This document shows, piece by piece, positions 3,377 through 29,216 of a stretch of DNA of 64,000 nucleotides. The position numbers and the translations under genes were made by a program. The notes beneath the pieces were generated by a model. It searched no databases, had not been told where the DNA came from, and saw only the letters and a list, made by a program, of their open reading frames with translations. Numbering within the stretch: position 1 is the first letter of the stretch; every line of letters begins with the position of its first letter. This stretch comes from an uncultured Clostridiaceae bacterium (GTDB lineage: Bacteria; Bacillota; Clostridia; TANB77; CAG-465), in contig CANCXL010000001.1 of the NCBI GenBank assembly GCA_947381905.1, positions 41,970-105,969 on the forward strand, written 5' to 3'.

Positions 3377-3889
3377 ATGAGTAAATATTCAAACAAATTT
3401 AAATTAGAAGTTATTAAATATTATTTAAATCAGCATGTAGGATATAAAATAACAGCCCAACATTTTGGTATACCTGCTTTTGATACAGTGAAAAAATGGG
3501 TAAAAAAATATGAGAAAAACGGAATTAATGGATTGCTAAAGAATCAAAGAACATCTTATAGTGGAGAATATAAACAAAATGTGATAGAATATATGCATGC
3601 GAATCATTTATCATGTCAAGAAACAGCCTATCACTTTAATTTGGGCAATACAAATATAGTTGTTAGATGGGAACGCATATATTATGAGAAAGGACCACAA
3701 GCGCTTTATGAAGAGCAACGTGGAAGACGAAAAAAAATGAGTTCTAACCCCAAAAAGAGGAAATTAGATAAACAAGTTGAGGAAGATCTAATAGCAGAAA
3801 ATCAACGACTTCGAATGGAAAATGAATACTTAAAAAAATTAAATGCCTTAGTTCAGGAAAGAATCAAGCAAGAGAACAAGAAAAAGTAA
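3377..3889 (+). CDS. IS3-family transposase OrfA (HTH / leucine-zipper part)
   Basis: Helix-turn-helix-like N-terminus, basic region and leucine-zipper-like C-terminus. RBS AAGGAGGG. Frame overlaps orfB in the -1 frame. An A7 run at 3832-3838 (A AAA AAA) and GAAAAAG at 3880-3886 are candidate slippery sites. Confidence 0.85.
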   Translation: MSKYSNKFKLEVIKYYLNQHVGYKITAQHFGIPAFDTVKKWVKKYEKNGINGLLKNQRTSYSGEYKQNVIEYMHANHLSCQETAYHFNLGNTNIVVRWERIYYEKGPQALYEEQRGRRKKMSSNPKKRKLDKQVEEDLIAENQRLRMENEYLKKLNALVQERIKQENKKK

Positions 3890-3921
3890 TTGTTGTCGAT
3901 GAACTAAGGCAGAAATATAGC

Positions 3922-4743
3922 TTGAGAGAATTACTAAAATTAGCAGAAATGCCACGAAGCACATTCTATTATCATTTGAAGAACCTAAAAAGAGATGACA
4001 AATATAAAGTAGAAAAAGATGAGATTTTATCAATCTTTCATGAAAATAAGGGTCGCTATGGTTATAGAAGAATAACATTAGAAATGAGAAATCGTGGCTA
4101 TGTAATAAATCATAAAACAGTTGCAAGACTAATGAAAATAATGGGATTACAAAGTATTCAAAGACCAAAAAGAAAATATAATTCATATAGAGGAACAATT
4201 GGAAAAATTGCAGATAATTTATTGAATCGAGATTTTAATGCTACAAAACCAAATGAAAAATGGGCTACAGATGTAACAGAGCTTAAAGTAAATGATGAAA
4301 AATTATACTTATCTCCAATATTAGATTTATTTAATGGTGAAGTAATAAGCTTTAATTTATCTCGACATCCAGTATTTAATCAAGTAGTAGATATGTTAGA
4401 AAAAGCTTTTAAGAAAATACCAGACAATACAAATTTAATATTACATTCAGATCAAGGATGGCAGTATCAAATGAAACAATATCAATATCTTTTAGAGAAA
4501 AAAGGTATTAGACAAAGCATGTCAAGGGAAGGAAATTGTTTAGATAATGGCGTAGCAGAAAACTTTTTTGGAATTTTAAAATCAGAACTTTATTATATAA
4601 AAGAAAAAGAATATAAAAATATAGAAGAATTAGAGAAAGATATAATTGAATATATAGAATATTATAATAACAGAAGAATTAAGAGCAAACTAAAAGGAAT
4701 GTCCCCTGTTCAATACAGAGAACATTCCATGTTAGTAGCCTAA
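3922..4743 (+). CDS. IS3-family transposase OrfB (DDE integrase catalytic core); expressed as an OrfAB fusion by -1 frameshift
   Basis: rve-type integrase core (HSDQGWQY..., the D and E of the DDE triad downstream). The -1 frame is open from 3826, overlapping the end of orfA. Confidence 0.85.
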   Translation: MRELLKLAEMPRSTFYYHLKNLKRDDKYKVEKDEILSIFHENKGRYGYRRITLEMRNRGYVINHKTVARLMKIMGLQSIQRPKRKYNSYRGTIGKIADNLLNRDFNATKPNEKWATDVTELKVNDEKLYLSPILDLFNGEVISFNLSRHPVFNQVVDMLEKAFKKIPDNTNLILHSDQGWQYQMKQYQYLLEKKGIRQSMSREGNCLDNGVAENFFGILKSELYYIKEKEYKNIEELEKDIIEYIEYYNNRRIKSKLKGMSPVQYREHSMLVA

Positions 4744-7151: not shown

Positions 7152-8042
7152 CTAATGTATATGTTCAAGTCTTGCTATACGTTCACTAATAGGAGGATGT
7201 GTAGAAAATAAATCTTCTTTTTCTCTTTTCTTCTTATTAGGATTATTTATATACATATGTGCTGTTGCATTACTTACATTTTGCATTGATGAAGTATCAT
7301 TTTGTAGCTTTTTTAATGCAGATATAAGTCCGTTTGGATTTCTTGTGAATTCTATTGCTGTAGAATCTGCAAGATATTCTCTTTTTCTAGAAACAGCAAG
7401 TTGTATTAATTTTGTAAATATTGGTGATAAAATAACAAATATCATTCCAATAACTAATATAATAAGCTCTATTGGATTTTTATCATCATTATTTCTTGAA
7501 TTTCTACGTCTAAAACCATATCTAATGACAAAATCTGAAACCATTACAACAAATCCTGCAAAAACAGAGATAACTGTTGAAAGTAAAATATCATAATTTT
7601 TTATATGAGATAACTCGTGAGCTAGAACTCCTTCAAGCTCGTATTTATCCATTTTTTCAAGTAATCCAGTTGTCACACATATTACTGCGTGTTCTGGATT
7701 TCTTCCAGTTGCAAAAGCATTTGGACAAGAATCGTTTATTACATATAGTTTAGGTTTTGGAAGCCCAGAAGCTATACATAGCCCATCAAGTAAAGTAGTT
7801 AGCAATAGATTTTGTTCTTTTGTTGCAGGTCTTGCACCATTCATAGCAAGAACAAGTTTATCACAATTATAATAAGATACAATACATGATAAAACAGAAA
7901 ATCCAAATGCTATTATAACTGACCAAATGCCAAAATCTAATAAGTAACATACAAAGTATATAAATAAAGCAACGATTACTAAAAATCCTGCAATTATTGT
8001 ATAAGATTGTATCTTATTATCTCTTACAGCTTTTAAAATCAT
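7152..8042 (-). CDS. htpX: M48 family zinc metalloprotease HtpX
   Basis: HELSH zinc-binding motif and N-terminal TM helices. Sits immediately downstream of lemA, the conserved lemA-htpX pair. Confidence 0.85.
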   Translation of the reverse strand: MILKAVRDNKIQSYTIIAGFLVIVALFIYFVCYLLDFGIWSVIIAFGFSVLSCIVSYYNCDKLVLAMNGARPATKEQNLLLTTLLDGLCIASGLPKPKLYVINDSCPNAFATGRNPEHAVICVTTGLLEKMDKYELEGVLAHELSHIKNYDILLSTVISVFAGFVVMVSDFVIRYGFRRRNSRNNDDKNPIELIILVIGMIFVILSPIFTKLIQLAVSRKREYLADSTAIEFTRNPNGLISALKKLQNDTSSMQNVSNATAHMYINNPNKKKREKEDLFSTHPPISERIARLEHIH

Positions 8043-8055
8043 AATATCACCTTAA

Positions 8056-8607
8056 TTAAAATTGTACTTTTACTGGTTCTTTTTCTGCTTCGTCAATTTG
8101 GAAAAATGGTTCTTCAGTATAACCAAACATTCCTGCAATTAAATTTGCTGGAAATCTCATTATAGCAGTATTATACATTTGAACTGTATCATTATAAAAT
8201 TGTCTTGAATAAGTAATTTTATCTTCAGTTCCTGTTAATTCAGTTTGTAGTGCCATAAAGTTTTGATTTGCTTTTAAATCTGGATAAGATTCAGATAAAG
8301 CGAAAATACTTTTTAAAGTTTGGCTTAATGCATTATTTGCTGCTGCTTTATCTTCTACAGAAGATGCTGAAGCATAATTATTTCTTGCAGCAATAACTTT
8401 TTCTAAAGTATCTTGTTCATGAGCAGCATAACCTTTTACAGTTTCAACAAGATTTGGTATTAAATCAAATCTTCTTTTTAGTTGAGTATCAATTTGTGCC
8501 CACGCATTTTTAACTCTCATTTTTAAAGTTACTAGATTGTTGTACATTCCAATTACAAACATGGCAATTAGTGCTAGAACAACAACTAATACAATTACAA
8601 TCCACAT
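8056..8607 (-). CDS. lemA: LemA family protein
   Basis: N-terminal TM helix plus LemA-like sequence (NAWAQIDTQLKRRFDLIPNLVETVKGYAAHE). Confidence 0.85.
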   Translation of the reverse strand: MWIVIVLVVVLALIAMFVIGMYNNLVTLKMRVKNAWAQIDTQLKRRFDLIPNLVETVKGYAAHEQDTLEKVIAARNNYASASSVEDKAAANNALSQTLKSIFALSESYPDLKANQNFMALQTELTGTEDKITYSRQFYNDTVQMYNTAIMRFPANLIAGMFGYTEEPFFQIDEAEKEPVKVQF

Positions 8608-8772
8608 AAAACATACCTCCCTTTTTAATGTGATAATAATATTTTATCATTAATATAAAATATTTGCAATAATATATTATACTTGGGACAAAATTCGTAT
8701 ATTACCAGAAAATGCCTAAAAATAGCATAATTTGTAATATTTAGTTTTTTATCTAATTAAGTGTCATCAAAT

Positions 8773-8801
8773 TTGACAAAGGTTATATTATATAGTATAA
8801 T
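8773..8801 (+). promoter_or_regulatory. consensus sigma-A promoter TTGACA-N17-TATAAT
   Basis: TTGACA at 8773-8778, 17-nt spacer, TATAAT at 8796-8801. Upstream of the 8834 gene. Confidence 0.6.
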
Positions 8802-8833
8802 TATGTTGTTAAATTTTCTTAGGAGGAATTTTT

Positions 8834-9832
8834 GTGGAAGAAGATAAAGCATTTATATTGAGAAAAATTCTTACTGTTGTAAGTCTTATTCTTATATTTG
8901 CTACAGCTGGATTGCTTGCAATTACAACTCAACTTAAGACAATCACATTTAACTATTATGGTAATGTAAAAACTATAAAAACATTAGCAAGTTCAGTAGA
9001 CGCTTTTTTACTACAGAATAATATAAGTTTAAATGATACTGCAGTAATTGAGCCTGCTAAAAAGTCTAGAGTTATAAATGGTATGACAATATCTATATAC
9101 ACCGAAGAAGAAAAAGCTTTTGATATAGATAGTTTTAGAGAATCATATTCTCCTATTATAGCAAGTGTAAAAGAGGAGATACATGCTATACCATTTGAAG
9201 AAGAAACAGTAGATAATAATGAAAGAGATTCTGGTGAAACTGAAGTAATACAAGAAGGAGTAGAAGGATCAAAATCAGTAAGTTATATAGTAAAATCAAC
9301 TAAAGATAAAGTTATTCAAAAAGAAGAAGTTGGAACAGAGGTTATTGCACAAGTACAAAATAGAATTGTTGAGGTAGGTACTAAAGTAACACTTGCTTCA
9401 AGAAGTGGTGTTATATCATCTATAACAGCAACACCAGTAGGTGCAGGATTTGTTTCGTACAATGTTTCTTTACCTGTAGAACAACAACAGTATGCATATA
9501 AACTTTGCGAAAAATATGGAATAGATTATCCGCTATTTTTATCTATTATGTATCATGAAAGTAGATATGTTCCTACTGCAAATAATAATAATACATACAT
9601 AGGCTTATGCCAAGTTTGGAATGCACATTTAAACAATTTAGGACCAACTCTTGGTATATCAGATTTATATGATCCATATGATAATATGACAGCAGGTGCA
9701 TATTTACTATCATATTATATTAATAATAATGGAGGAGTTGAAGCTGGACTTGCATCATATGGTGGAGGATATTCTTATGTTCCTGATGTTATGGGCTTAC
9801 GAGATAAATTGATTGCAAATGGTGGATTATAA
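8834..9832 (+). CDS. membrane-anchored G5-domain protein with C-terminal SLT-type lytic transglycosylase domain (YabE/Rpf-like)
   Basis: GTG start 6 nt after AGGAGGA. N-terminal TM helix, G5-like middle region. C-terminal lytic-transglycosylase signatures (MYHESRY, GLCQV, AYL). Located upstream of rsmA as yabE is in Bacillus. Confidence 0.65.
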   Translation: MEEDKAFILRKILTVVSLILIFATAGLLAITTQLKTITFNYYGNVKTIKTLASSVDAFLLQNNISLNDTAVIEPAKKSRVINGMTISIYTEEEKAFDIDSFRESYSPIIASVKEEIHAIPFEEETVDNNERDSGETEVIQEGVEGSKSVSYIVKSTKDKVIQKEEVGTEVIAQVQNRIVEVGTKVTLASRSGVISSITATPVGAGFVSYNVSLPVEQQQYAYKLCEKYGIDYPLFLSIMYHESRYVPTANNNNTYIGLCQVWNAHLNNLGPTLGISDLYDPYDNMTAGAYLLSYYINNNGGVEAGLASYGGGYSYVPDVMGLRDKLIANGGL

Positions 9833-11511: not shown

Positions 11512-12093
11512 TTATATTCCAGCAACATGATGCGTAAGCCTTTTATAGCATTTTCTACATACTGCTTTATATGAGTCATTTCCTCCAATTAGTATGTCTG
11601 GTCCATTTGTAACAGGTACACCATTTATCATACGCATATTAACAGTTGCTTTTCTACCACAATCACATATTGTTTTTATTTCTTCAATTTTATCTGCCAT
11701 TTCCATAAGAGGCTCTGAACCTTCAAAAAATCTCATTTTAAAGTTAGTTCTTAATCCATAACATATAACTGGAATTTCTAGTATATCAACAACATCTGTT
11801 AGCATAAGTACTTGCTTTCTTGTAAGAAACTGTGCTTCATCGACAAGTATACAGGCTGGCTTTTTATCCATAAGCTTTACTTGTCTATATATATTAGTAT
11901 CAGTATCAAATGTTAAAGCATCAGATTGAATGCCAATTCTTGTTGTTACTTTTCCAACTTCATATCTATCATCAATCTTTGCTGTATAAATAACTACGTC
12001 TTGTCCACGTTCTTTGTAATTATAGGCGACCTTTAATAAATCTATAGTTTTACCGCTACCCATTGCGCCATATCTAAAATATAATTTAGACAT
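11512..12093 (-). CDS. tdk: thymidine kinase
   Basis: P-loop GAMGSGKT plus a C-terminal zinc ribbon (CDCGRKA...CRKCY). Start chosen at MSKLYF with RBS AGGTGGA. Confidence 0.9.
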   Translation of the reverse strand: MSKLYFRYGAMGSGKTIDLLKVAYNYKERGQDVVIYTAKIDDRYEVGKVTTRIGIQSDALTFDTDTNIYRQVKLMDKKPACILVDEAQFLTRKQVLMLTDVVDILEIPVICYGLRTNFKMRFFEGSEPLMEMADKIEEIKTICDCGRKATVNMRMINGVPVTNGPDILIGGNDSYKAVCRKCYKRLTHHVAGI

Positions 12094-12183
12094 AAATATC
12101 CACCTCAATTTCAAAAAAATTATAGCATAAATAGTGCTATATGTTAAGACAATTTAATTAAAAAAATTAATCTTTTTTTAGTG

Positions 12184-12212
12184 TTGACAAGCCATATTTT
12201 TTAATATATAAT
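12184..12212 (+). promoter_or_regulatory. perfect consensus sigma-A promoter TTGACA-N17-TATAAT driving the metallophosphoesterase pair
   Basis: TTGACA at 12184-12189, 17-nt spacer, TATAAT at 12207-12212. Confidence 0.65.
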
Positions 12213-12245
12213 GAGGGCAGTTGTTAACACATGATGAGCTAAATG

Positions 12246-12275
12246 ATTATTTGCTTGAATTCCTGAACAAATAAT
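12246..12275 (+). promoter_or_regulatory. 8-bp inverted repeat (ATTATTTG ... CAAATAAT) in the 5' leader; hairpin or operator
   Basis: ATTATTTG at 12246-12253 and CAAATAAT at 12268-12275, with a 14-nt loop that contains GAATTC. Lies between the promoter and the RBS. Confidence 0.35.
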
Positions 12276-12294
12276 TTTAAGGAGGGGATTTTAT

Positions 12295-13251
12295 ATGAAA
12301 AATTATAGCAAAGTAGTTGAAAAAATGAAAAAAGAACAGCTCACGTTAAAGCAACTAAGATTAACTTTAGAAGATATTATTTATCTAAGAGATATTGGAT
12401 ACACTATAAAAGATCAATATGATCCTAGACAAGAGGATTATGTATATTATATAGTAACATCTGGAGATACTGCATATATTAAAATTTCTGATGCACCATC
12501 AAAAAATAAAGAGATAGTTTTAAAGCTACTCGAGATATCCGATTTACACACAGGTTGTAGAAATTTTGATAAAGCAGGCTTAGATAAAACTCTTCAAGAG
12601 GCAAAATTAAGAGGCGTGGAATTTGTTCATATTTCGGGCGACTTGCTCGATGGCTATGGCGTTTATAAGGGACATGAAAATAACCTTAAAAATAACAAGG
12701 CCATAGAGCAAGTCAATGAACTTATGTCTGTACTTGAAAAATATGATTTCTGGTACATTGTTAGTATGGGAAATCATGATCAGTCTTTCTGTATGAGAGG
12801 AGGACTTGACCCAATTAAATATTTGGAAGCTAAAATGGCAAAGAAAGGAAAGAAATTTACTTATCTTAATGCTTATGAAGGAAATATAATTCACGCAGGA
12901 ATTGTATTTAGACTTATACATTTACAAGGTGGAGCAGCAAGAGCAGCATCATATAAAGTACAAGTTTATCTTTCTAGAGTATTTGAAAGTAATTTAAATG
13001 ACGTAGAGGTTGGCGGAAAAATATACAATTTAAGAAGCATACAAGCGGGTCATTTTCATACTTTTTATGCACTCTCAATGAGTGGTGTTACAATTATTAT
13101 GCCAGGTAACTTTCAACATGATGGAGACTTAGAAAAAAGAATGGGAATTTCAGGAAAAACAGGTGGAGTATTTAGAGAGCTCACAATAGTTGGCGACAAA
13201 ATTGCCAAGGAAAAGATAGAGTTCTATCATCCTTGGGAAAAGGAGGGGTAA
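12295..13251 (+). CDS. calcineurin-like metallophosphoesterase (Mre11/SbcD-like motif set) with a roughly 80-aa N-terminal extension
   Basis: Motifs D-x-H (ISDLHTG), GDxxD (SGDLLDG), GNHD (SMGNHDQ), GHxH (QAGHFHT). RBS AAGGAGGGGA. Confidence 0.75.
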   Translation: MKNYSKVVEKMKKEQLTLKQLRLTLEDIIYLRDIGYTIKDQYDPRQEDYVYYIVTSGDTAYIKISDAPSKNKEIVLKLLEISDLHTGCRNFDKAGLDKTLQEAKLRGVEFVHISGDLLDGYGVYKGHENNLKNNKAIEQVNELMSVLEKYDFWYIVSMGNHDQSFCMRGGLDPIKYLEAKMAKKGKKFTYLNAYEGNIIHAGIVFRLIHLQGGAARAASYKVQVYLSRVFESNLNDVEVGGKIYNLRSIQAGHFHTFYALSMSGVTIIMPGNFQHDGDLEKRMGISGKTGGVFRELTIVGDKIAKEKIEFYHPWEKEG

Positions 13252-13255
13252 GATT

Positions 13256-14218
13256 ATGAATGAAGATTTTTTAACCTCACAAAAAGCAACTAATGCACTT
13301 TCAAAAATGCGTACAAAAGCATGTACACTTGAGGAACTTGAGTTAACACAAGAAGAGATTGATGAACTTGTTTCTGCAACGGGAAACATTCAATATAACG
13401 AGTTTAACAAGACATACTATATAACGAAATTTAATGAGAATAACTATGAAATAATTTCCTTTTTAAATAAAGAAGCAATAACAGAAAAATGGCTTGAACT
13501 TAGCGATATTTACCTTGGAAGTCAGTTTTGTGATATGGACACATTAAAGTATGTACTAAATCTTGCAAGAGAGAAAGGATACAATAATGTTCATATTTCT
13601 GGCGATTTATGTGCGGGACATCCAGCATATAAGAAGCAAGACTTATACTTGACAGCTAAAACTGCACAAGAGCAAGCAAATATTGCAATTGATTTGTTTT
13701 CACAGTATCCAGAATTTAAATTCTATTGTATAAATGGTGAACGTGATATTTCATTTGAAAAAGGTGATTCAATAAATCCTTTAATTTTAATCCAAAGAGG
13801 ACTATCTGAAAAGGGAATTGAGTTTCACCACATTAATGAGAATGTCGCAAATCTAGTTATACAAGGTGTTGTAAAAAGATTACAACATGGTACTGGAAGA
13901 CTTGCATATACAAAGTCATATAAAATAGAAAAGGAAATGTGGCAACAGTTTGAGAATATGAGTGATAATGTTATAATAAAAAATCGTAACTACGATATCA
14001 AATTTGTACAATTTGGACATTATCATGTAAATAGTTATCAAGAGCTAGGCGGAATAAGAATCACATCTACCGCAGGTATGGTATTTGATGATAAGGGTGT
14101 CTTAAATGAGAATACGTCTTATCCAACAGCAAAGTTTTCAGAGGCAACTATAAAAAGCGGTAAAGTTACTAGATTTATAACTGAAAATGTTATGAATCCT
14201 AAGAATGTAAAGATGTAG
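13256..14218 (+). CDS. paralogous metallophosphoesterase-like protein with degenerate catalytic motifs (likely inactive partner)
   Basis: Collinear with the upstream gene, including the N-terminal TL..L.LT.EEI region. D-x-H is replaced by D-I-Y, GDxxD by GDLCAG, GNHD by NGERD. GHYH is retained. Only a 4-nt gap from the upstream stop. Confidence 0.7.
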   Translation: MNEDFLTSQKATNALSKMRTKACTLEELELTQEEIDELVSATGNIQYNEFNKTYYITKFNENNYEIISFLNKEAITEKWLELSDIYLGSQFCDMDTLKYVLNLAREKGYNNVHISGDLCAGHPAYKKQDLYLTAKTAQEQANIAIDLFSQYPEFKFYCINGERDISFEKGDSINPLILIQRGLSEKGIEFHHINENVANLVIQGVVKRLQHGTGRLAYTKSYKIEKEMWQQFENMSDNVIIKNRNYDIKFVQFGHYHVNSYQELGGIRITSTAGMVFDDKGVLNENTSYPTAKFSEATIKSGKVTRFITENVMNPKNVKM

Positions 14219-14221
14219 AAT

Positions 14222-14254
14222 AAAACACTTCATTTGAAGTGTTTTTAATTTTTT
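14222..14254 (+). terminator. rho-independent terminator
   Basis: AAAACACTTC / GAAGTGTTTT stem with 4-nt loop, followed by a T-run. Confidence 0.6.
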
Positions 14255-14403
14255 CCTAAAAATTTAAAACTAATTTAATGTAAAACAACACAAAAGATTA
14301 CATAAGAATTGATTTTTCATTTTAAATAGTGTATAATGATAGAGATGTTTATAGTAAGCATTAATAATATGATTATATTATTTGGAAAGAGAGGATGGTT
14401 ATC

Positions 14404-14970
14404 ATGAAAAAAATGAGAATCGTAGACGGAAAACTTTTTTGCTACATTGAGGCACAGGATGTGGAGACATTAGTCTCTTGTAAGGAATTTGTTAGACCTG
14501 AAATTTTTGAGGAAAAGTCAATAAAAACAGGTAAAACAAATAAGGAAGGATTGTACAAAATCCGGGACATTAGTATGGTGCACTATATTAAATCATTGCC
14601 GTATATTCCCAATGCAGATTATTTTGCAGGATTAGAAGGCGGCGAGCATAGTGCAATCGCAAACAAAGCTACAAGAGATAACGAGCTTTTATACTATATC
14701 CTTGATGATGTATGTGAGCTTGGGAAGACGATAAGCGAAGAAGAAAAGCAGCTTCTTGTGGGAATGGAGCATGTAGACCAGAGTTTGGTTACTACTTTGC
14801 TTGGACTTGATCCGCAGGATAACGCACAGTGGCAGTTAGCATATAAGATTTCACATGCTTTAAAGCAACAGTCACTTAACTTCTTATATCCGGTTCTTAA
14901 CACGTTACATGATAAACAAGCAAGTCAAACAGATGGTAAAAACCATCAAAAAGGTTTGAAGCACAATTAG
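14404..14970 (+). CDS. hypothetical protein (locally elevated GC)
   Basis: ATG at 14404 sits 8 nt after AGAGAGGA. Own promoter TTGATT-N17-TATAAT (14309-14337). Stretches such as GGCGGCGAGCATAGTGCAATCGC are atypically GC-rich for this window. Confidence 0.5.
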   Translation: MKKMRIVDGKLFCYIEAQDVETLVSCKEFVRPEIFEEKSIKTGKTNKEGLYKIRDISMVHYIKSLPYIPNADYFAGLEGGEHSAIANKATRDNELLYYILDDVCELGKTISEEEKQLLVGMEHVDQSLVTTLLGLDPQDNAQWQLAYKISHALKQQSLNFLYPVLNTLHDKQASQTDGKNHQKGLKHN

Positions 14971-15014
14971 GGGGGAACTTTCCCTCTTTTTAATTTTGTT
15001 CATAAAAGGATAAA

Positions 15015-15043
15015 TTGACATAATATAGAAAAAGTAGTATAAT
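15015..15043 (+). promoter_or_regulatory. perfect consensus sigma-A promoter TTGACA-N17-TATAAT
   Basis: TTGACA at 15015-15020, TATAAT at 15038-15043. Confidence 0.6.
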
Positions 15044-15099
15044 TCTTATGACATTATATAGTTTTTCACGATGAATTAGAAAGTGAGGATTGGTATTAA

Positions 15100-15645
15100 A
15101 TGAAATTATTTAATCGGTTAGAAGAAATACTACAAAAAAGAAGAGAAAGGTATGAATTAGTTGAACATGAATTTTTAGATGATGGGCATGTTAATAATCA
15201 TGGGTATAATATACCTATTACTTTAAAGGTAAAATTATCTATTCCTAAATTTTATAAAGAGGCAGAAGATGATGCAGATTACATTAAAAAGAATGTTAGA
15301 AGATGGAATAGATATACTTCAAATGGTGAGTTAGTATCTTTTGTAGATGCATATTTGGAAAATTATAGTAAAGATAGATTTGGCTATATATTAAATCCAG
15401 ATAAGCATATCCCTACTGAGGAATACATTAAAGATAATTTTTCAATATTATCTAGAAAAGAACAATATTTTGGTATGTTAAGATATGAGGTAATAAAGCT
15501 AAGTAAATATCATACAATTTATATTACGTACCTTGCAAATGATATTGCATATATTGTAAATGTTTGTAATCTTAATTTGGATATTAAGATGAAAGAGATA
15601 AAAAAATTACTAGATATAGAATATGATTATGAAAATATAAAGTAG
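15100..15645 (+). CDS. hypothetical protein
   Basis: ORF with RBS GAGGA. Followed by a hairpin plus T-run terminator at about 15645-15675. Confidence 0.5.
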   Translation: MKLFNRLEEILQKRRERYELVEHEFLDDGHVNNHGYNIPITLKVKLSIPKFYKEAEDDADYIKKNVRRWNRYTSNGELVSFVDAYLENYSKDRFGYILNPDKHIPTEEYIKDNFSILSRKEQYFGMLRYEVIKLSKYHTIYITYLANDIAYIVNVCNLNLDIKMKEIKKLLDIEYDYENIK

Positions 15646-16072
15646 CAAAAAATAATGCTACTTTTATTTTTTATAAAATTTCATACAAAAAATATCTAAT
15701 TTTGTCGATAATCTTTACATATTATATATTTGTGGTATCTTATTATCAGTAGATTAAAAATATGATTTGGAAAAAGGGTTACTAAATTTTATATTTAGTA
15801 GCTCTTTTTATGTTTAATAATGTGACAAAAAATTATTCTTGCATGCCTATATAGTAGTAGATGTATTAATAATTGAAAATAAATAAAAACTATTTATTTA
15901 GATTTAAATATATCATAAGAATAAAAAAATATATTTTTTCACAAAAAATTGCAACCATTTTATGGAAAAATAGAGTCTTAATAGTGTAAGTTGATTACGT
16001 GATTAATTTAAATAATAAAAAACTATTAGCACATTTTTAATATAGACTTAAAAAATTGAAAGGAATAGAACT

Positions 16073-16591
16073 ATGGATGAACTTTTAAAAAGACTTAAAA
16101 TTGGAGATGAAGAAGCTTTTGAATATTTGGTAAAGTTTTATGAAAGACAATTGTTAATTATTGCTAAATTAAGGCTAAATGATGAGCATCTTGCAAGGGA
16201 TGCTGTACAAGAGACTTTTTTAAGTTTATTTTTGAATTCAATGAAAATAAGTAATTCTAAAAAAATAAAGCCTTGGCTTACTGCAGTTTTGATCAACAAA
16301 TGCAATGATTTGGCAAGAGAAAATAAGATAATGCAGGTATCATTTGAACAAAATGATTTTGAAAATTTTATTTATTCTGATGACGAATTTAAGAATATAA
16401 TAGACAAAATAGATTTCGTAAGTAAAATAAATTTGCTAGACGTTGATGAAAGAACAATAATTGCTATGTATTATGAGGGAGAATATACTACTAAAGAAAT
16501 ATCAGAAATTTTAAATATTAGCAATGGAACAATAAAAAGCAAGATATCTAGGGCAAAAGTAAAATTAAAAAATAAAATTGGAGGTAACTAA
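16073..16591 (+). CDS. ECF-type sigma-70 family RNA polymerase sigma factor
   Basis: Region-2-like (FLSLF...PWL) and region-4 HTH (TTKEISEILNISNGTIKSKISRAK). Confidence 0.8.
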   Translation: MDELLKRLKIGDEEAFEYLVKFYERQLLIIAKLRLNDEHLARDAVQETFLSLFLNSMKISNSKKIKPWLTAVLINKCNDLARENKIMQVSFEQNDFENFIYSDDEFKNIIDKIDFVSKINLLDVDERTIIAMYYEGEYTTKEISEILNISNGTIKSKISRAKVKLKNKIGGN

Positions 16592-16593
16592 TT

Positions 16594-17469
16594 TTGAATA
16601 GATATAATGATGAAATGGATAAAATATTACATGAACAAATAAGTAATATAAAAATAGAAGGATTTAGTAAAGATGAAATACAAGAAATGATTTTTAAAGC
16701 AAAACAAAGACAAAAAGTTAGAAAAATAAAATTATATAAAATGGCAGCTTGTTTTGTACTATTAATTTTAGCTTCTTTTGTGGGAATTGCTTCTTGTGTT
16801 ATTAATAAATCAGAAAATGCAAATACAATTATACAGGGAAATATAGATAATAATAACAAGGAAACTAAAGAATATGTGGTGTATTCTAAAATCGAACCTA
16901 ATGCTACTGCTTCTAGAGTTATACCTACTACCAAAGAAATATATGACCTATCTGAAGTTGTTGTAATAGCTAAAGTTGATAATGTTGATGTTATAAATTA
17001 TGATAATTTTTATAACAATGAAGAAAAGCAATATACATTTGTTAGAACAATTGGAAATGTTACAGTGTTAAATACAATAAAAGGAAATTTTAATAAAGGT
17101 GATAGCATAGAGCTCAGAAAAAAAGGCGGTAAAATTAAATATAAGAACATTTTAGATTATTACGAAGCCTGCCCTAATATTTCTAGAGATATAGAAATGA
17201 ATAAAGAATGTCAAGAATTAATAGATAGTGGAAAAAATATAAATGATATATATACCGATGTTTCAGTTGGATTTAAAAATATAAATATTGAAAAAGGAAA
17301 GACTTATTTAGTGCATTTAACTCAGAAAAGTTCAGGACAATGGTGGGTACAAGCAGACGAAAATGGAATTAGAGAATATAATGAAGAAAATGATACAGTT
17401 TTAAACAATAAAACTGGCGAATGGGAAAAATTAGATTATGTAAAAGATATTTGGGAAATGGGGGAGTAA
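16594..17469 (+). CDS. putative membrane-spanning anti-sigma factor (cognate to upstream ECF sigma)
   Basis: Start is 3 nt after the sigma-factor stop. Single TM helix (AACFVLLILASFVGIASCVI) separates a short cytoplasmic N-terminus from a roughly 220-aa extracytoplasmic domain. Confidence 0.6.
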   Translation: MNRYNDEMDKILHEQISNIKIEGFSKDEIQEMIFKAKQRQKVRKIKLYKMAACFVLLILASFVGIASCVINKSENANTIIQGNIDNNNKETKEYVVYSKIEPNATASRVIPTTKEIYDLSEVVVIAKVDNVDVINYDNFYNNEEKQYTFVRTIGNVTVLNTIKGNFNKGDSIELRKKGGKIKYKNILDYYEACPNISRDIEMNKECQELIDSGKNINDIYTDVSVGFKNINIEKGKTYLVHLTQKSSGQWWVQADENGIREYNEENDTVLNNKTGEWEKLDYVKDIWEMGE

Positions 17470-17501
17470 AAATAATAATAAAGAAGAATTTAACTATAAT
17501 A

Positions 17502-17759
17502 TTAGTTAAATTCTTCTTTTGCTTTTTCAAATAACATATCTAATGATATTCCTAGTATTTTGCAAAAGGCATATGCTTCGAAGTCTTTTACTATTCTTTC
17601 AAAATGTTCTATTTTATATATATCAGAACGATATAATGCAATGCCTAACAAACTCATTTTCGTACATATATCTTCTTGGGTTAGATTTTTTAAATTTCTA
17701 TATTTTTTTACATTATGTCCAATTATATTAAGTTTGTTGTTAAGTCTATTAGCTTTCAT
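17502..17759 (-). CDS. XRE-family helix-turn-helix transcriptional regulator (85 aa)
   Basis: HTH_3 signature (LKNLTQEDICTKMSLLGIALYRSDIYKIE). Confidence 0.75.
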   Translation of the reverse strand: MKANRLNNKLNIIGHNVKKYRNLKNLTQEDICTKMSLLGIALYRSDIYKIEHFERIVKDFEAYAFCKILGISLDMLFEKAKEEFN

Positions 17760-17842
17760 ATAATCACCTAAAATAATTCTATTATAAATTTTATGACTTG
17801 AAAATTATAAATATATTTTATCACATAAAATTATTTAAACAC

Positions 17843-17877
17843 AAAAAAATCAAGCATCTCTTACGAAATGCTTGATT
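17843..17877 (-). terminator. rho-independent terminator downstream of the tRNA cluster
   Basis: On the minus strand, GGTGCAATCAAGCAT...ATGCTTGATT forms a 10-bp stem followed by TTTTTTT. Confidence 0.6.
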
Positions 17878-17891
17878 GCACCATTTTTACA

Positions 17892-17967
17892 TGGAGCTGA
17901 AACCCAGATTCGAACTGGGGACCTACGGTTTACAAGACCGTTGCTCTACCAGCTGAGCTATTCCAGC
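17892..17967 (-). tRNA. tRNA-Thr (anticodon UGU)
   Basis: Minus-strand read GCTGGAATAGCTCAGCTGGTAGAGCAACGGTCTTGTAAACCGT...TTTCAGCTCCA. Cloverleaf with CTTGTAA anticodon loop and encoded CCA. Confidence 0.85.
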
Positions 17968-17982
17968 AAATATACTTTTAAA

Positions 17983-18057
17983 TGGTGACCCGTAGGAGAG
18001 TCGAACTCCTCACTCCGCCGTGAAAGGGCGATGTCTTAACCGATTGACCAACGGGCC
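17983..18057 (-). tRNA. tRNA-Glu (anticodon UUC)
   Basis: Minus-strand read GGCCCGTTGGTCAATCGGTTAAGACATCGCCCTTTCACGGCGG...CGGGTCACCA. Near-identical in form to Bacillus tRNA-Glu. Confidence 0.85.
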
Positions 18058-18064
18058 CCATTTG

Positions 18065-18140
18065 TGGTGAGCCATCGCAGATTCGAACTGCGGACAACTT
18101 GATTAAAAGTCAAGTGCTCTGCCAACTGAGCTAATGGCCC
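18065..18140 (-). tRNA. tRNA-Lys (anticodon UUU)
   Basis: Minus-strand read GGGCCATTAGCTCAGTTGGCAGAGCACTTGACTTTTAATCAAGT...GATGGCTCACCA. Confidence 0.85.
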
Positions 18141-18577: not shown

Positions 18578-18901
18578 ATGAATAGAAAAGTTTTAATGTG
18601 TATTATATGGATAAGTTTTTTGATTTTTTCTATATCTTGTGTTTATGCTGCTACATCTACTCCAAGTTTAGTTACAAAAATAAATTCTGCTTTTAGTAAA
18701 ATACAAGGATATCTTGAAAAGATATCAACACCGATTGCAGGAGTATGTATTATTAGTGGTATTTTAGTAAGGAAATTAAGTTTTGGCGATGAAAAGAAAA
18801 TGATTATCGGAAAGAAAATTATAATAAACTCTGTTATTGGATATGCATCTATAAGACTTATTGATCTTATTATTAAATTTATAGAAACTGTAGTTAAGTA
18901 A
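18578..18901 (+). CDS. small secreted/membrane protein (signal peptide plus two hydrophobic helices; VirB2/TrbC-pilin-like architecture)
   Basis: RBS GAAAGGGTGG. Signal peptide ending VYA/ATST, then two hydrophobic helices separated by a basic loop. Extremely AT-rich. Confidence 0.5.
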   Translation: MNRKVLMCIIWISFLIFSISCVYAATSTPSLVTKINSAFSKIQGYLEKISTPIAGVCIISGILVRKLSFGDEKKMIIGKKIIINSVIGYASIRLIDLIIKFIETVVK

Positions 18902-19689
18902 TGAAAGATATCATAAATAATGTTAATAGTATTTTAGGAAAACTTTATTCTTCAATTATTAATGATGGTTTTGAGCTACTAGATAAAATTACAGGATTAA
19001 ATTCTAAAATATTAAATATTAACACGCTTAAATTATTTAAAGATAATATTGATTCTATAAATGCAATAGTTATGTGTTTAATTATTGGTCTTTTTATATT
19101 TTTTATTCTCAAATATATTATTTCATTATATAGTGATGTATACATATTAAGTATTTACAGCTTAATTATTAGGACTATTGTTGTTGCTATAATATGTACT
19201 AATAGTATATATATTTGTTCTACTATATTAGATATTCACTATGAACTTTATCAAGGAACTAAAAAATGTTTAGAAGAAATAAGTAAAGAAAATATACAAT
19301 ATAATTTTTTAAAAGAAGATATAAAAACTTTAGAAGACTTTTTTAAAAGTACAAATAAAATTGGACTAAAAGGAATAAAAGATAGTATATTATGTACATA
19401 TATTATTTTCTTGATTGTAAGCTTTTCATGTAGATATATAGTAGTTATACTATGCATTATTTTATCTCCGCTTTTTCTTATGTTTCTAATAAGTAATAAA
19501 ACAATAAAATATACTTTATTATGGTTTAAGACTTTTATAATTGCGTTGTTTTTAGAAACAGTAAATATAATTATTATCTTTATTCCTATTACAAGCAATA
19601 AAGATAAGGAATTGTATCCGGTTATATTACTTGGAAGTATGTTTATTATGTATAAAGTGAATAAAAAGATAGGAGATTTTACTAAATGA
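18901..19689 (+). CDS. polytopic integral membrane protein (262 aa)
   Basis: Start overlaps the upstream stop (TAATG). About 6 predicted TM segments with a charged central loop. Confidence 0.5.
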   Translation: MKDIINNVNSILGKLYSSIINDGFELLDKITGLNSKILNINTLKLFKDNIDSINAIVMCLIIGLFIFFILKYIISLYSDVYILSIYSLIIRTIVVAIICTNSIYICSTILDIHYELYQGTKKCLEEISKENIQYNFLKEDIKTLEDFFKSTNKIGLKGIKDSILCTYIIFLIVSFSCRYIVVILCIILSPLFLMFLISNKTIKYTLLWFKTFIIALFLETVNIIIIFIPITSNKDKELYPVILLGSMFIMYKVNKKIGDFTK

Positions 19690-28774: not shown

Positions 28775-29097
28775 TTAGTATACTATATGATCGCTGGTCT
28801 TATGACGAGAGGAAAGTCCGGACACTATAGAGCAGGGTGCTAGATAACGTCTAGTGGGAGTAATCCTAAGGAAAGTGCAACAGAAAATTACCGCTACATT
28901 TGTAGTAAGGGTGAAAACGTGAGGTAAGAGCTCACGAGCTTTTGTGGAGACATGAAAGCGGTGTAAACCCCACCTAGTGCAACTCCAGAAGAAAACGTTT
29001 GTAGGTTGCTCGCCAAGTTTTGAGTTGGAGGCTTGAAATATATAGCAATATATATTCTAGATAAATGATCATTTAATACAGAATCCGGCTTATTATA
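28775..29097 (+). ncRNA. rnpB: RNase P RNA, bacterial type B (Firmicutes)
   Basis: Conserved GAGGAAAGTCCGGAC near the 5' end and ACAGAATCCGGCTTA near the 3' end. Extended -10 TGaTATAAT at 28758-28766. Terminator hairpin at about 29113-29140. Not represented in the ORF track. Confidence 0.85.
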
Positions 29098-29216
29098 TGC
29101 TAAATATTAAAAAAAGCTCAACTTTGAGCTTTTTTTTGACAATAAAATAATATGATGTTATTATTTATACATAGAATATATATTTACTATTTTTTTAATA
29201 AAAAGGAGGAGTTGTT

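What the first reader, a model, noticed from the sequence alone, without database searches (positions are those of the whole stretch)
12184..14254. Two-gene operon: an Mre11/SbcD-like metallophosphoesterase followed by its own catalytically degenerate paralog
Gene 1 carries all five calcineurin-like phosphoesterase motifs, including the nuclease-type GHxH. Gene 2, 4 nt downstream, is collinear with gene 1, including a shared roughly 80-aa N-terminal domain (TL..L.LT.EEI). It has mutated three metal-binding motifs (DxH to DIY, GDxxD to GDLCAG, GNHD to NGERD) while keeping GHYH. That pattern fits an active enzyme paired with a pseudo-enzyme, as in heterodimeric nuclease/phosphatase systems. Along with a perfect promoter, a leader hairpin and a location in a likely island, this makes it a candidate for an undescribed two-component nuclease module, for example phage defence or DNA processing. 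No ATPase partner such as SbcC is present.
Basis: partly seen in the sequence, partly recalled or inferred. Interest (0 to 1): 0.7.

Follow-up and report, generated by a model that had tools for sequence, protein, structure and literature searches.

The report
Active plus dead DP1-like phosphoesterase pair
Two adjacent genes in an uncultured gut Clostridia genome encode a probable nuclease and a catalytically dead copy of it; the pair is kept together (sometimes fused) as a conserved core chromosomal unit with no signs of phage defence, and its closest solved relative is the proofreading subunit of the archaeal replicative DNA polymerase.

Summary
Gene 1 (12295-13251) and gene 2 (13256-14218) are paralogs (29% identity, E 6e-27), 4 nt apart, between a perfect conserved sigma-A promoter and a terminator. 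Gene 1 keeps all nine metallophosphoesterase catalytic residues. Gene 2 always lacks at least three.

- **Obligate pairing.** Gene 2 directly follows gene 1 in every bacterial locus examined. A sister lineage carries both as one ~700-aa fusion (active N half, dead C half). Both genes are under strong purifying selection (dN/dS about 0.05).
- **Not an island or defence module.** About 18 related species share the synteny dut...rsmA-GDPD-(tdk)-pair-...-dnaB-dnaI. Distant lineages place the pair among housekeeping genes. PADLOC and the plasmid collection give nothing.
- **Viral relatives.** Single active relatives occur in phage and archaeal-virus contigs, and some carry inteins.

Best reading: a two-subunit (catalytic plus scaffold) ssDNA 3'-end nuclease for DNA processing. 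The substrate is untested. I rate it a new variant of a known kind, of moderate interest.

The parts
12184..12212 (+). Sigma-A type promoter TTGACA-17 nt-TATAAT
   Evidence: 12/12 consensus match, the only one in 12000-14500. Both hexamers are invariant in 13 orthologous loci (A4).
12213..12294 (+). 5' leader with conserved sequence blocks (CAGTTG, ATGAGC, GCTTG, TTTCCT) and the gene 1 Shine-Dalgarno sequence (AGGAGGGG, 12280-12287)
   Evidence: The blocks are conserved in 13 loci. A weak anti-SD pairing TTTCCT/AGGAGG is predicted. The fold is no more stable than shuffles (z +0.57). No Rfam match. Function unknown.
12295..13251 (+). Gene 1: catalytic subunit, 318 aa. N-terminal winged-helix-like domain (about aa 1-68) plus a DP1-like metallophosphoesterase domain (about aa 74-318) with all nine catalytic residues.
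13240..13255 (+). Coupling junction: gene 2 Shine-Dalgarno sequence (13240-13248) inside the end of gene 1, TAA stop at 13249-13251, 4-nt spacer
   Evidence: Read directly from the sequence. Gene 2 follows gene 1 at this position in all 29 bacterial loci.
13256..14218 (+). Gene 2: non-catalytic paralog, 320 aa, with the same two-domain architecture. Catalytic residues read DY / DA / ER / H / HH in this clade and are eroded further in distant orthologs.
14222..14255 (+). Intrinsic terminator: 10-bp stem, 4-nt loop, T-run

Best explanation
The locus is a self-contained, vertically inherited bicistronic operon in a clade of uncultured animal-gut Clostridia. It encodes a two-subunit metallophosphoesterase.

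Gene 1 is the catalytic subunit: a winged-helix N-domain followed by a binuclear-metal phosphodiesterase domain. That domain's closest relative is the 3'-5' proofreading exonuclease DP1 of archaeal PolD. Gene 2 is an ancient duplicate that lost catalysis but is maintained as an obligate non-catalytic partner, acting as scaffold, regulator or DNA-binding subunit.

The two are made in a coupled manner from one sigma-A transcript and most likely form a pseudo-symmetric heterodimer. In a sister lineage the same two modules are joined in one polypeptide.

The most likely activity is metal-dependent hydrolysis of single-stranded DNA 3' ends (or flaps and ends) during DNA repair, recombination or replication-associated processing. 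The ancestor was probably a single-gene winged-helix-phosphoesterase of the kind now found in phage and archaeal-virus genomes.

Shown: paralogy, inactivation of gene 2, obligate linkage and fusion, purifying selection, core chromosomal location, and DP1-like fold and loops.

Inferred: physical heterodimer, DNA as substrate, 3'-end specificity, cellular role.
For: Paralogy and inactivation:
- Gene 1 and gene 2 are paralogs.
- Gene 1 has 9/9 catalytic residues in every locus where it reads through intact. Gene 2 always lacks D119, N160 and H161, and loses nearly all ligands in distant lineages.

Linkage:
- Gene 2 directly follows gene 1 in all 29 bacterial loci. No third gene is conserved.
- Fusion proteins form a genuine family of 21 clusters, on contigs up to 197 kb. 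The N half is intact and the C half dead.
- An NJ tree puts gene 1 with the fused N halves, sister to gene 2 with the fused C halves. This indicates one old duplication and parallel divergence.

Selection and location:
- dN/dS is 0.04-0.07 for both genes.
- Core synteny holds in about 18 species.

Nuclease affinity:
- Profile search gives DP1 3e-12 and Mre11 2e-4. NCBIfam DP1 models give 1.8e-16. Both genes match PHROG 7339, 'DNA repair exonuclease'.
- Gene 1 residues 115-135 (GDLLDGYGVYKGHENNL...) align without gaps to DP1 403-423. PMC10721889 describes that stretch as an exonuclease selectivity loop restricting the site to ssDNA; Y412 of DP1, which stacks on base -2, aligns with the near-invariant Y124.

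Other:
- The N-domain is a winged helix: relatives hit HTH_5, TrmB and HTH_11.
- Relatives sit in viral genomes and next to replication genes (L037, L039), and some host inteins at catalytic motifs.
Against: - No biochemical data exist for any member, and every database name is 'hypothetical protein'.
- No heterodimer model could be computed.
- Neighbouring genes give no consistent functional theme.
- The second DP1 selectivity loop aligns only weakly, and DP1 F586 corresponds to Leu in gene 1.
- DP1 needs DP2 to build its exo channel, and no DP2 exists here.
- In this clade the winged helix has an 8-residue deletion relative to other family members, so DNA binding by it is uncertain.
Confidence: 0.5

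Rival explanations
1. Anti-phage defence or other conflict module. The active nuclease is kept in check or targeted by its dead paralog and attacks invading DNA.
For: Active/inactive nuclease pairs and phage-derived nucleases are common in defence systems. Relatives occur in phage genomes. NCBIfam gives a very weak match to the DS9_1 anti-phage phosphoesterase (E 0.049). A variable region with tRNA genes lies just downstream.
Against: PADLOC gives no match at E <= 0.01 for the pair, its neighbours, the fusion or the phage relatives; only a weak Cas3a2 listing (E 0.019) appears for gene 1 at the E <= 1 cut-off. Position is syntenic in about 18 species, with core-gene-like identity. Distant lineages place the pair next to ackA, spoIVA, pyruvate kinase, deoC and similar genes. 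dN/dS of about 0.05 shows no sign of arms-race diversification. No plasmid copies. The promoter is a constitutive-type consensus.
Confidence: 0.1
2. A phosphodiesterase that is not a nuclease (nucleotide, cyclic or oligo-nucleotide, or another phosphoester). The winged-helix domains would serve regulation, possibly autoregulating the conserved promoter and leader.
Against: By both sequence and structure the nearest relatives are the two nuclease clades, DP1 and then Mre11. The DP1 ssDNA loop is shared. Viral relatives sit in replication modules. Inteins occur in relatives; by my own knowledge inteins are strongly biased to DNA-metabolism proteins.
Confidence: 0.2
3. Polymerase accessory complex. 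This would be a bacterial counterpart of DP1 and the eukaryotic B-subunits, in which the active subunit proofreads and the dead one scaffolds a DNA polymerase.
Against: There is no OB fold, no DP1 N-domain, and no DP2 or other polymerase gene conserved nearby. NCBIfam DP1 scores are far below cut-off: 60 bits against 445. The neighbourhood link to replication genes is confined to one clade.
Confidence: 0.07
4. Decaying remnant of a prophage gene duplication with no current cellular role.
For: The family has viral relatives. Gene 2 has lost catalytic residues. Two MAG loci (L025, L026) show an interrupted gene 1.
Against: dN/dS is 0.04-0.07 for both genes. ORFs are intact in the other 27 loci. 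The promoter, Shine-Dalgarno sequences and terminator are conserved. Fused versions are conserved across 47-72% identity.
Confidence: 0.03

Closest known systems
Archaeal PolD small subunit DP1 (3'-5' proofreading exonuclease; PDB 5IHE, 6KNB, 8PPT)
   Different: There is no OB-fold domain and no DP1 N-terminal helical domain; a winged helix takes their place. No DP2 partner or any polymerase is linked. The host is bacterial. The protein is about 320 aa, against 475-660 aa for the solved DP1 chains. It pairs with a dead paralog instead of a polymerase. NCBIfam DP1 scores are far below the family cut-offs.
Eukaryotic B-subunits of Pol alpha/delta/epsilon (inactivated DP1 homologs)
   Different: The inactivation here is independent and lineage-specific. 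The active paralog is retained alongside. There is no polymerase C-terminal-domain partner and no OB fold.
Mre11/SbcD nucleases
   Different: There is no capping domain and no Rad50/SbcC ATPase gene. Motif II has Asp (GDLLDG) rather than the Mre11 His (my own knowledge). The selectivity loops are long as in DP1, whereas in Mre11 they are shortened (PMC10721889).
Phage metallophosphoesterases such as Bxb1 gp47 (recombination directionality factor, needed for replication) and mycobacteriophage gp48 (DNase)
   Same: DP1/Mre11-like phosphoesterases of viral origin with DNA-directed activities (PMC11795197, PMC12287305). Relatives of gene 1 occur in phage contigs, some within replication modules.
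   Different: Similarity to Bxb1 gp47 is only generic to the superfamily (hhalign probability 18%). Those proteins are single and lack the winged helix and the dead partner.
Pseudomonas putida MPE (Mn-dependent ssDNA endonuclease of a DNA-repair operon; PMC7826289)
   Same: A bacterial stand-alone metallophosphoesterase nuclease acting on ssDNA without an SMC ATPase.
   Different: [quoted passage not shown] No such repair genes flank this pair. It was not compared by sequence here.

Membership tests
Calcineurin-like metallophosphoesterase superfamily | Five motifs: DxH, GDxxD, GNH[D/E], H, GHxH | tested here: met
   Gene 1 has all of them in every locus. Gene 2 fails motifs I-III, so it belongs by fold only.
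Calcineurin-like metallophosphoesterase superfamily | Beta-sandwich phosphoesterase fold | tested here: met
PolD DP1 / polymerase B-subunit family | Phosphodiesterase domain closer to DP1 than to other metallophosphoesterases | tested here: met
PolD DP1 / polymerase B-subunit family | OB-fold domain preceding the phosphodiesterase domain | tested here: not met
   Only about 70 residues precede the phosphodiesterase domain. They fold as three helices plus three strands, and in relatives they match wHTH families.
PolD DP1 / polymerase B-subunit family | Linked polymerase catalytic subunit (DP2 or a PolB C-terminal domain) | tested here: not met
   No polymerase gene is conserved next to the pair in any of about 30 loci.
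PolD DP1 / polymerase B-subunit family | Score above the curated family cut-off | tested here: not met
   NCBIfam NF003118 gives 60 bits against a cut-off of 445. Pfam gives no DNA_pol_E_B hit.
PolD DP1 / polymerase B-subunit family | ssDNA-selectivity loops with stacking aromatics | tested here: inconclusive
   Loop 1 aligns without gaps, with Y124 opposite Y412. Loop 2 aligns weakly, with Leu opposite F586.
Mre11/SbcD | C-terminal capping domain | tested here: not met
Mre11/SbcD | Adjacent Rad50/SbcC SMC-type ATPase | tested here: not met
   None in the window neighbourhood or in related loci.
Known anti-phage defence systems (PADLOC-DB v2) | Match to a defence protein model | tested here: not met
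   Nothing at E <= 0.01. At E <= 1 the only listing is Cas3a2 for gene 1, residues 2-99 (the N-domain), E 0.019, 13 bits; gene 2 has none.
Known anti-phage defence systems | Variable, island-like genomic location | tested here: not met
   Syntenic core position in about 18 species. Variability begins downstream of gene 2.
Bxb1 gp47-type phage phosphoesterase / RDF | Specific sequence similarity | tested here: not met
   hhalign probability 18%, confined to motifs II-III.

The most novel reading that the evidence does not exclude
The pair is a bacterial analogue of the DP1 / B-subunit system. An active DP1-like exonuclease and its dead paralog would dock onto a Clostridial DNA polymerase, replicative or repair, as a trans-acting proofreader plus scaffold. 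That would put a PolD-type proofreading module into Bacteria and replay, within one operon, the DP1-to-B-subunit inactivation seen between Archaea and Eukarya.
Probability: 0.07. Interest if true: 0.85.

Novelty: new variant of a known kind. Interest (0 to 1): 0.45.

Why it matters
The locus defines an unannotated protein family: a winged helix plus a DP1-like phosphoesterase. No Pfam or NCBIfam model reaches its curated cut-off, and every database name is 'hypothetical protein'.

An enzyme / pseudo-enzyme partnership has been fixed in this family, both as an operon and as a gene fusion. I found no description of this for bacterial metallophosphoesterases in the literature searched.

It also shows that the DP1-type branch of the Mre11-like fold, usually treated as archaeal and eukaryotic, has bacterial and viral members. 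It gives a second, independent case of the 'active exonuclease becomes structural subunit' trajectory.

Practically, it is a candidate ATPase-independent ssDNA-end nuclease in abundant but uncultured gut Clostridia.

The limits are real. Distribution is narrow: 22 of 185,579 species representatives carry the unfused pair. There is no experimental handle and no clear cellular role.

Tried and rejected
- **Defence hypothesis.** PADLOC scans of the pair, four neighbouring ORFs, a fusion protein and two phage relatives gave nothing at E <= 0.01; at E <= 1 gene 1 had one weak Cas3a2 listing (E 0.019). The plasmid collection gave no match.
- **Leader RNA.** Rfam found nothing in the operon region at E <= 1. 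RNAalifold gave only a 4-bp and a 6-bp helix with negligible covariation. The single-sequence fold had z +0.57. The 'leader hairpin' was therefore dropped.
- **LexA (Cheo) box.** Looked for by eye in the promoter and leader; none seen.
- **Viral contig scans.** Family alignments failed for lack of usable conserved patterns or confirmed hits. Single-protein queries found only two loci.
- **Phage record search.** It found only Halorubrum virus BLv36 ORF43. Its neighbours are head-morphogenesis genes, which says nothing about function.
- **Bxb1 gp47.** The comparison showed superfamily-level similarity only.
- **afdb50 fold search.** The library was unavailable.
- **Third conserved gene.** Clustering the neighbours of distant loci found none.
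- **Sporulation link.** spoIVA, ypeB, the cotJ operon and spoIID recur near the pair or the fusion in several lineages. I judged this not distinguishable from chance in spore-former genomes.
Full report
**Observation**

The window is AT-rich (about 27-28% GC) and carries two same-strand ORFs. Gene 1 is 12295-13251 (318 aa) and gene 2 is 13256-14218 (320 aa).

They are separated by 4 nt. The gene 2 Shine-Dalgarno sequence (AAGGAGGGG, 13240-13248) lies inside the last codons of gene 1, an arrangement typical of translational coupling.

Upstream is a perfect TTGACA-17-TATAAT promoter (12184-12212), the only 12/12 match in the region. Downstream is a hairpin plus T-run terminator (14222-14245). 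The unit is therefore an isolated bicistronic operon, divergent from thymidine kinase.

BLASTP of the two products gives 29% identity over 258 residues, E 6e-27. Multiple alignment extends the similarity into the N-terminal 70-80 residues.

Gene 1 has D83-x-H85, G-D116-x-x-D119, G-N160-H161-D, H209 and G-H253-x-H255.

**How general is the pattern**

Searches of 5.8 billion proteins found only 55 clusters for gene 1 and 37 for gene 2, all unnamed or 'hypothetical'.

A scan of one genome per GTDB species found 22 species of 185,579. All are uncultured Clostridia MAGs from animal and human guts.

In every bacterial locus recovered (29, including metagenomic contigs), tblastn finds the gene 2 ortholog directly after gene 1.

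A motif table over these loci shows gene 1 with 9/9 catalytic residues wherever it is intact. Gene 2 always lacks D119, N160 and H161. In the more distant lineages (35-47% identity) gene 2 has also lost most remaining ligands, for example SL/DA/IN/Y/G- or DW/NF/SR/S/NL. The inactivation is therefore ancient and progressive, not an alignment artefact.

Gene 2 diverges faster at depth: 35% identity where gene 1 keeps 50%. Yet it is under purifying selection as strong as gene 1. Nei-Gojobori dN/dS is 0.04-0.07 for both genes in pairs with unsaturated dS. It is a maintained pseudo-enzyme, not a pseudogene.

**Evidence that the two act together**

A profile search of 1.84 billion cluster representatives recovered proteins of 600-710 aa with two matched stretches. 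Domain scoring and motif extraction show an N half that scores as gene 1 and has all nine residues. The C half scores as gene 2 and is dead, for example NQ/DW/DC/H/SR.

A follow-up search shows this is a genuine family. It has 21 clusters at 47-72% identity, on contigs up to 197 kb. It is encoded as a single gene in ordinary chromosomal contexts of spore-forming Clostridia.

A neighbour-joining tree places gene 1 with the fused N halves, sister to gene 2 with the fused C halves. Both together are sister to a group of single, active ~300-320-aa proteins with the same architecture (no bootstrap).

One duplication followed by inactivation of the second copy, then fusion or fission, explains this topology. 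Invariable adjacency, a natural fusion, parallel divergence and coupled translation together make an obligate two-subunit protein the best reading. The physical heterodimer itself remains an inference.

**Not an island, and no defence signature**

Window proteins were mapped onto the related loci. The order dut-M48 peptidase-LemA-G5/SLT-rsmA-GDPD-(tdk)-gene 1-gene 2-[variable]-orf262-dnaB(DnaB_2)-dnaI-MBL-dnaJ-gyrA-like recurs in about 18 species. Gene 1 identities (77-89%) match or exceed those of rsmA, tdk and dnaI.

The variable stretch begins after gene 2. In the window it comprises two unknown ORFs, an ECF sigma/anti-sigma pair and three tRNA genes (14395-18140). The pair sits on the conserved side of that stretch.

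In lineages at 44-55% identity the pair has moved. It lies beside ackA, spoIVA, pyruvate kinase, deoC/lexA or a 3D-domain protein, and no third gene travels with it.

PADLOC gave nothing at E <= 0.01 for the pair, four neighbouring ORFs, a fusion or two phage relatives; at E <= 1 it listed one weak Cas3a2 match to gene 1's N-terminal region, E 0.019. The plasmid collection has no copy.

**What kind of phosphoesterase**

Pfam does not recognise the window proteins. Relatives hit only generic Metallophos/Metallophos_2.

The specific signals all point to the archaeal PolD small subunit DP1:
- NCBIfam DP1 models, E 1.8e-16, though far below cut-off.
- phmmer against PDB finds only DP1 chains.
- The family profile gives DP1 at 3e-12, against Mre11 at 2e-4.

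Gene 1 residues 115-135 (GDLLDGYGVYKGHENNLKNNK) align without gaps to DP1 403-423 (GDVVDGIGIYPGQYSDL...). PMC10721889 identifies that stretch as one of two 'exonuclease selectivity loops' that restrict the DP1 site to ssDNA and are shortened in Mre11. DP1 Y412, which stacks on base -2 of the primer, corresponds to Y124, which is nearly invariant across the wider family. The second loop aligns only weakly.

Defining DP1 features are missing. There is no OB fold, no DP1 N-domain and no DP2 or other linked polymerase. The pair therefore resembles DP1 in its active site but is not a DP1 ortholog. 'Mre11/SbcD-like' is correct only at superfamily level.

**N-terminal domain**

Both models show three helices followed by three strands. 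Family members with a fuller version hit winged-helix families (HTH_5/ArsR, TrmB, PF0610-like_N and HTH_11).

The window clade has an 8-residue deletion in the helix-turn-helix region relative to those members. The domain is thus a winged helix, but its role here (DNA binding or protein contact) is open.

**Wider family and origin**

The profile search found 1,856 representatives at E <= 1e-3, and most listed ones have intact motifs. The nearest single-gene members occur in virus-like contexts:
- P0091 follows tail genes and precedes an M23 endolysin (L010).
- P0095 is on an IMG/VR contig, at the junction of the tail module and a convergent replication module with a polymerase exonuclease subunit, a dNMP kinase and a primase (L037).
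- P0054 lies next to a portal gene (L009).
- ORF43 of Halorubrum tailed virus BLv36 is a full-length homolog, N-domain included.
- A more distant ~390-aa relative sits between primase-polymerase and helicase, exonuclease and DNA polymerase genes on another viral contig (L039).
- BFVD fold matches include phage proteins labelled DNA polymerase II small subunit, SbcD and DNA repair exonuclease.

Six representatives are interrupted by inteins with canonical junctions. Two different insertion sites are used: GNHDY|CIS...GN|S, and AYAK|CFD...GN|S. By my own knowledge this is typical of DNA-metabolism proteins of mobile elements.

A plausible history is capture of a viral winged-helix-phosphoesterase gene by a Clostridial ancestor, followed by duplication, inactivation of one copy, and fixation.

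**Mechanism proposed**

One sigma-A transcript yields the two subunits through coupled translation. They assemble into a pseudo-symmetric heterodimer, which is covalently joined in the fused lineage. Gene 1 supplies a binuclear-metal site with a DP1-like narrow entrance that accepts single-stranded 3' ends. Gene 2 supplies a second, inert copy of the fold and a second winged helix, for DNA or partner binding, stability or regulation.

The cellular role is most likely DNA-end or flap processing in repair, recombination or replication.

Confidence by step:
- High (about 0.85) for 'obligate catalytic + non-catalytic pair'.
- Moderate (about 0.5) for 'DNA nuclease'.
- Low for the precise substrate and pathway.

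Rivals are a small-molecule phosphodiesterase with regulatory winged helices (0.2), a defence module (0.1), a polymerase accessory complex (0.07) and a decaying remnant (0.03).

**Leader**

The promoter and several leader blocks are conserved in 13 loci. However, there is no Rfam match, the consensus fold is marginal and the single-sequence fold is no better than shuffles. The conservation is real but unexplained. An operator for one of the winged-helix domains is one possibility.

**Verdict**

The defence/island framing is not supported, and the family assignment shifts from Mre11/SbcD to DP1-like. It is an undescribed variant within a known superfamily, narrowly distributed in uncultured gut Clostridia. 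Interest is moderate (0.45).

Noticed in passing
Proteins P0102, P0124, P0135, P0142 (site 1) and P0121, P0162 (site 2): Relatives of gene 1 are split by inteins of about 310-400 aa that carry LAGLIDADG homing-endonuclease domains. Two independent insertion sites are used: directly after motif III (GNHDY|CIS...GN|S) and before the conserved SYxxQ motif (AYAK|CFD...GN|S).
   Followed up: partly
window 12213-12294, and alignment A4/A5 of 13 loci: The 5' leader has sequence blocks conserved across species (GAGGnCAGTTG, ATGATGAGC, GCTTG, TTTCCT), including a three-codon mini-ORF ATG-ATG-AGC-TAA in several species. There is no supported RNA structure and no Rfam match, so the reason for the conservation is unexplained.
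   Followed up: partly
window 14395-18140: This is a variable block immediately downstream of the operon. It holds two ORFs with no family match (191 and 181 aa), an ECF sigma factor with a putative anti-sigma (172 and 291 aa), and a tRNA-Thr/Glu/Lys cluster on the minus strand. The block is absent or replaced in related species (L006 lacks it; L011 and L025 carry other inserts of 6-8 kb). It looks like an integration or variability hot spot.
   Followed up: partly
window 3377-4743: Two consecutive ORFs with HTH_Tnp_1/HTH_28 and rve integrase domains, consistent with an IS3-family insertion sequence with the usual two-ORF layout. They are present in the identical metagenomic contigs L001 and L002.
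   Followed up: no
L025 10001-10940 and L026 10001-10955: In two MAGs, gene 1 is interrupted: tblastn splits the match into two pieces in different frames. This could be an assembly error or a genuine pseudogenisation. Gene 2 is intact in both.
   Followed up: no
L036 (Halorubrum tailed virus BLv36, OQ850970.1) 7749-8909: ORF43 of a haloarchaeal tailed virus is a full-length homolog (27% identity over residues 5-315, including the N-domain). It lies between the portal and capsid genes rather than in a replication module, an odd location for a nuclease.
   Followed up: partly
L008, L030, L031, L033, L034, L035: Sporulation genes recur close to the pair or the fusion in independent lineages: spoIVA immediately upstream, ypeB immediately downstream, the cotJA-cotJB-Mn-catalase operon within about 2 kb in two lineages, and spoIID and spoIIIAA nearby. 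I could not distinguish this from chance in spore-former genomes.
   Followed up: no
window 18600-19689 and the orthologous positions in L006 and L014-L027: A conserved trio sits upstream of dnaB(DnaB_2)-dnaI across the clade: a small protein with a weak T4SS_pilin/TrbC match, a 262-aa protein and a ~112-aa protein, none with a family assignment.
   Followed up: no
window 28775-29107 and 35162-35247: RNase P RNA (class A, 270 bits) and small SRP RNA (67 bits) confirm that the window is core chromosome.
   Followed up: yes
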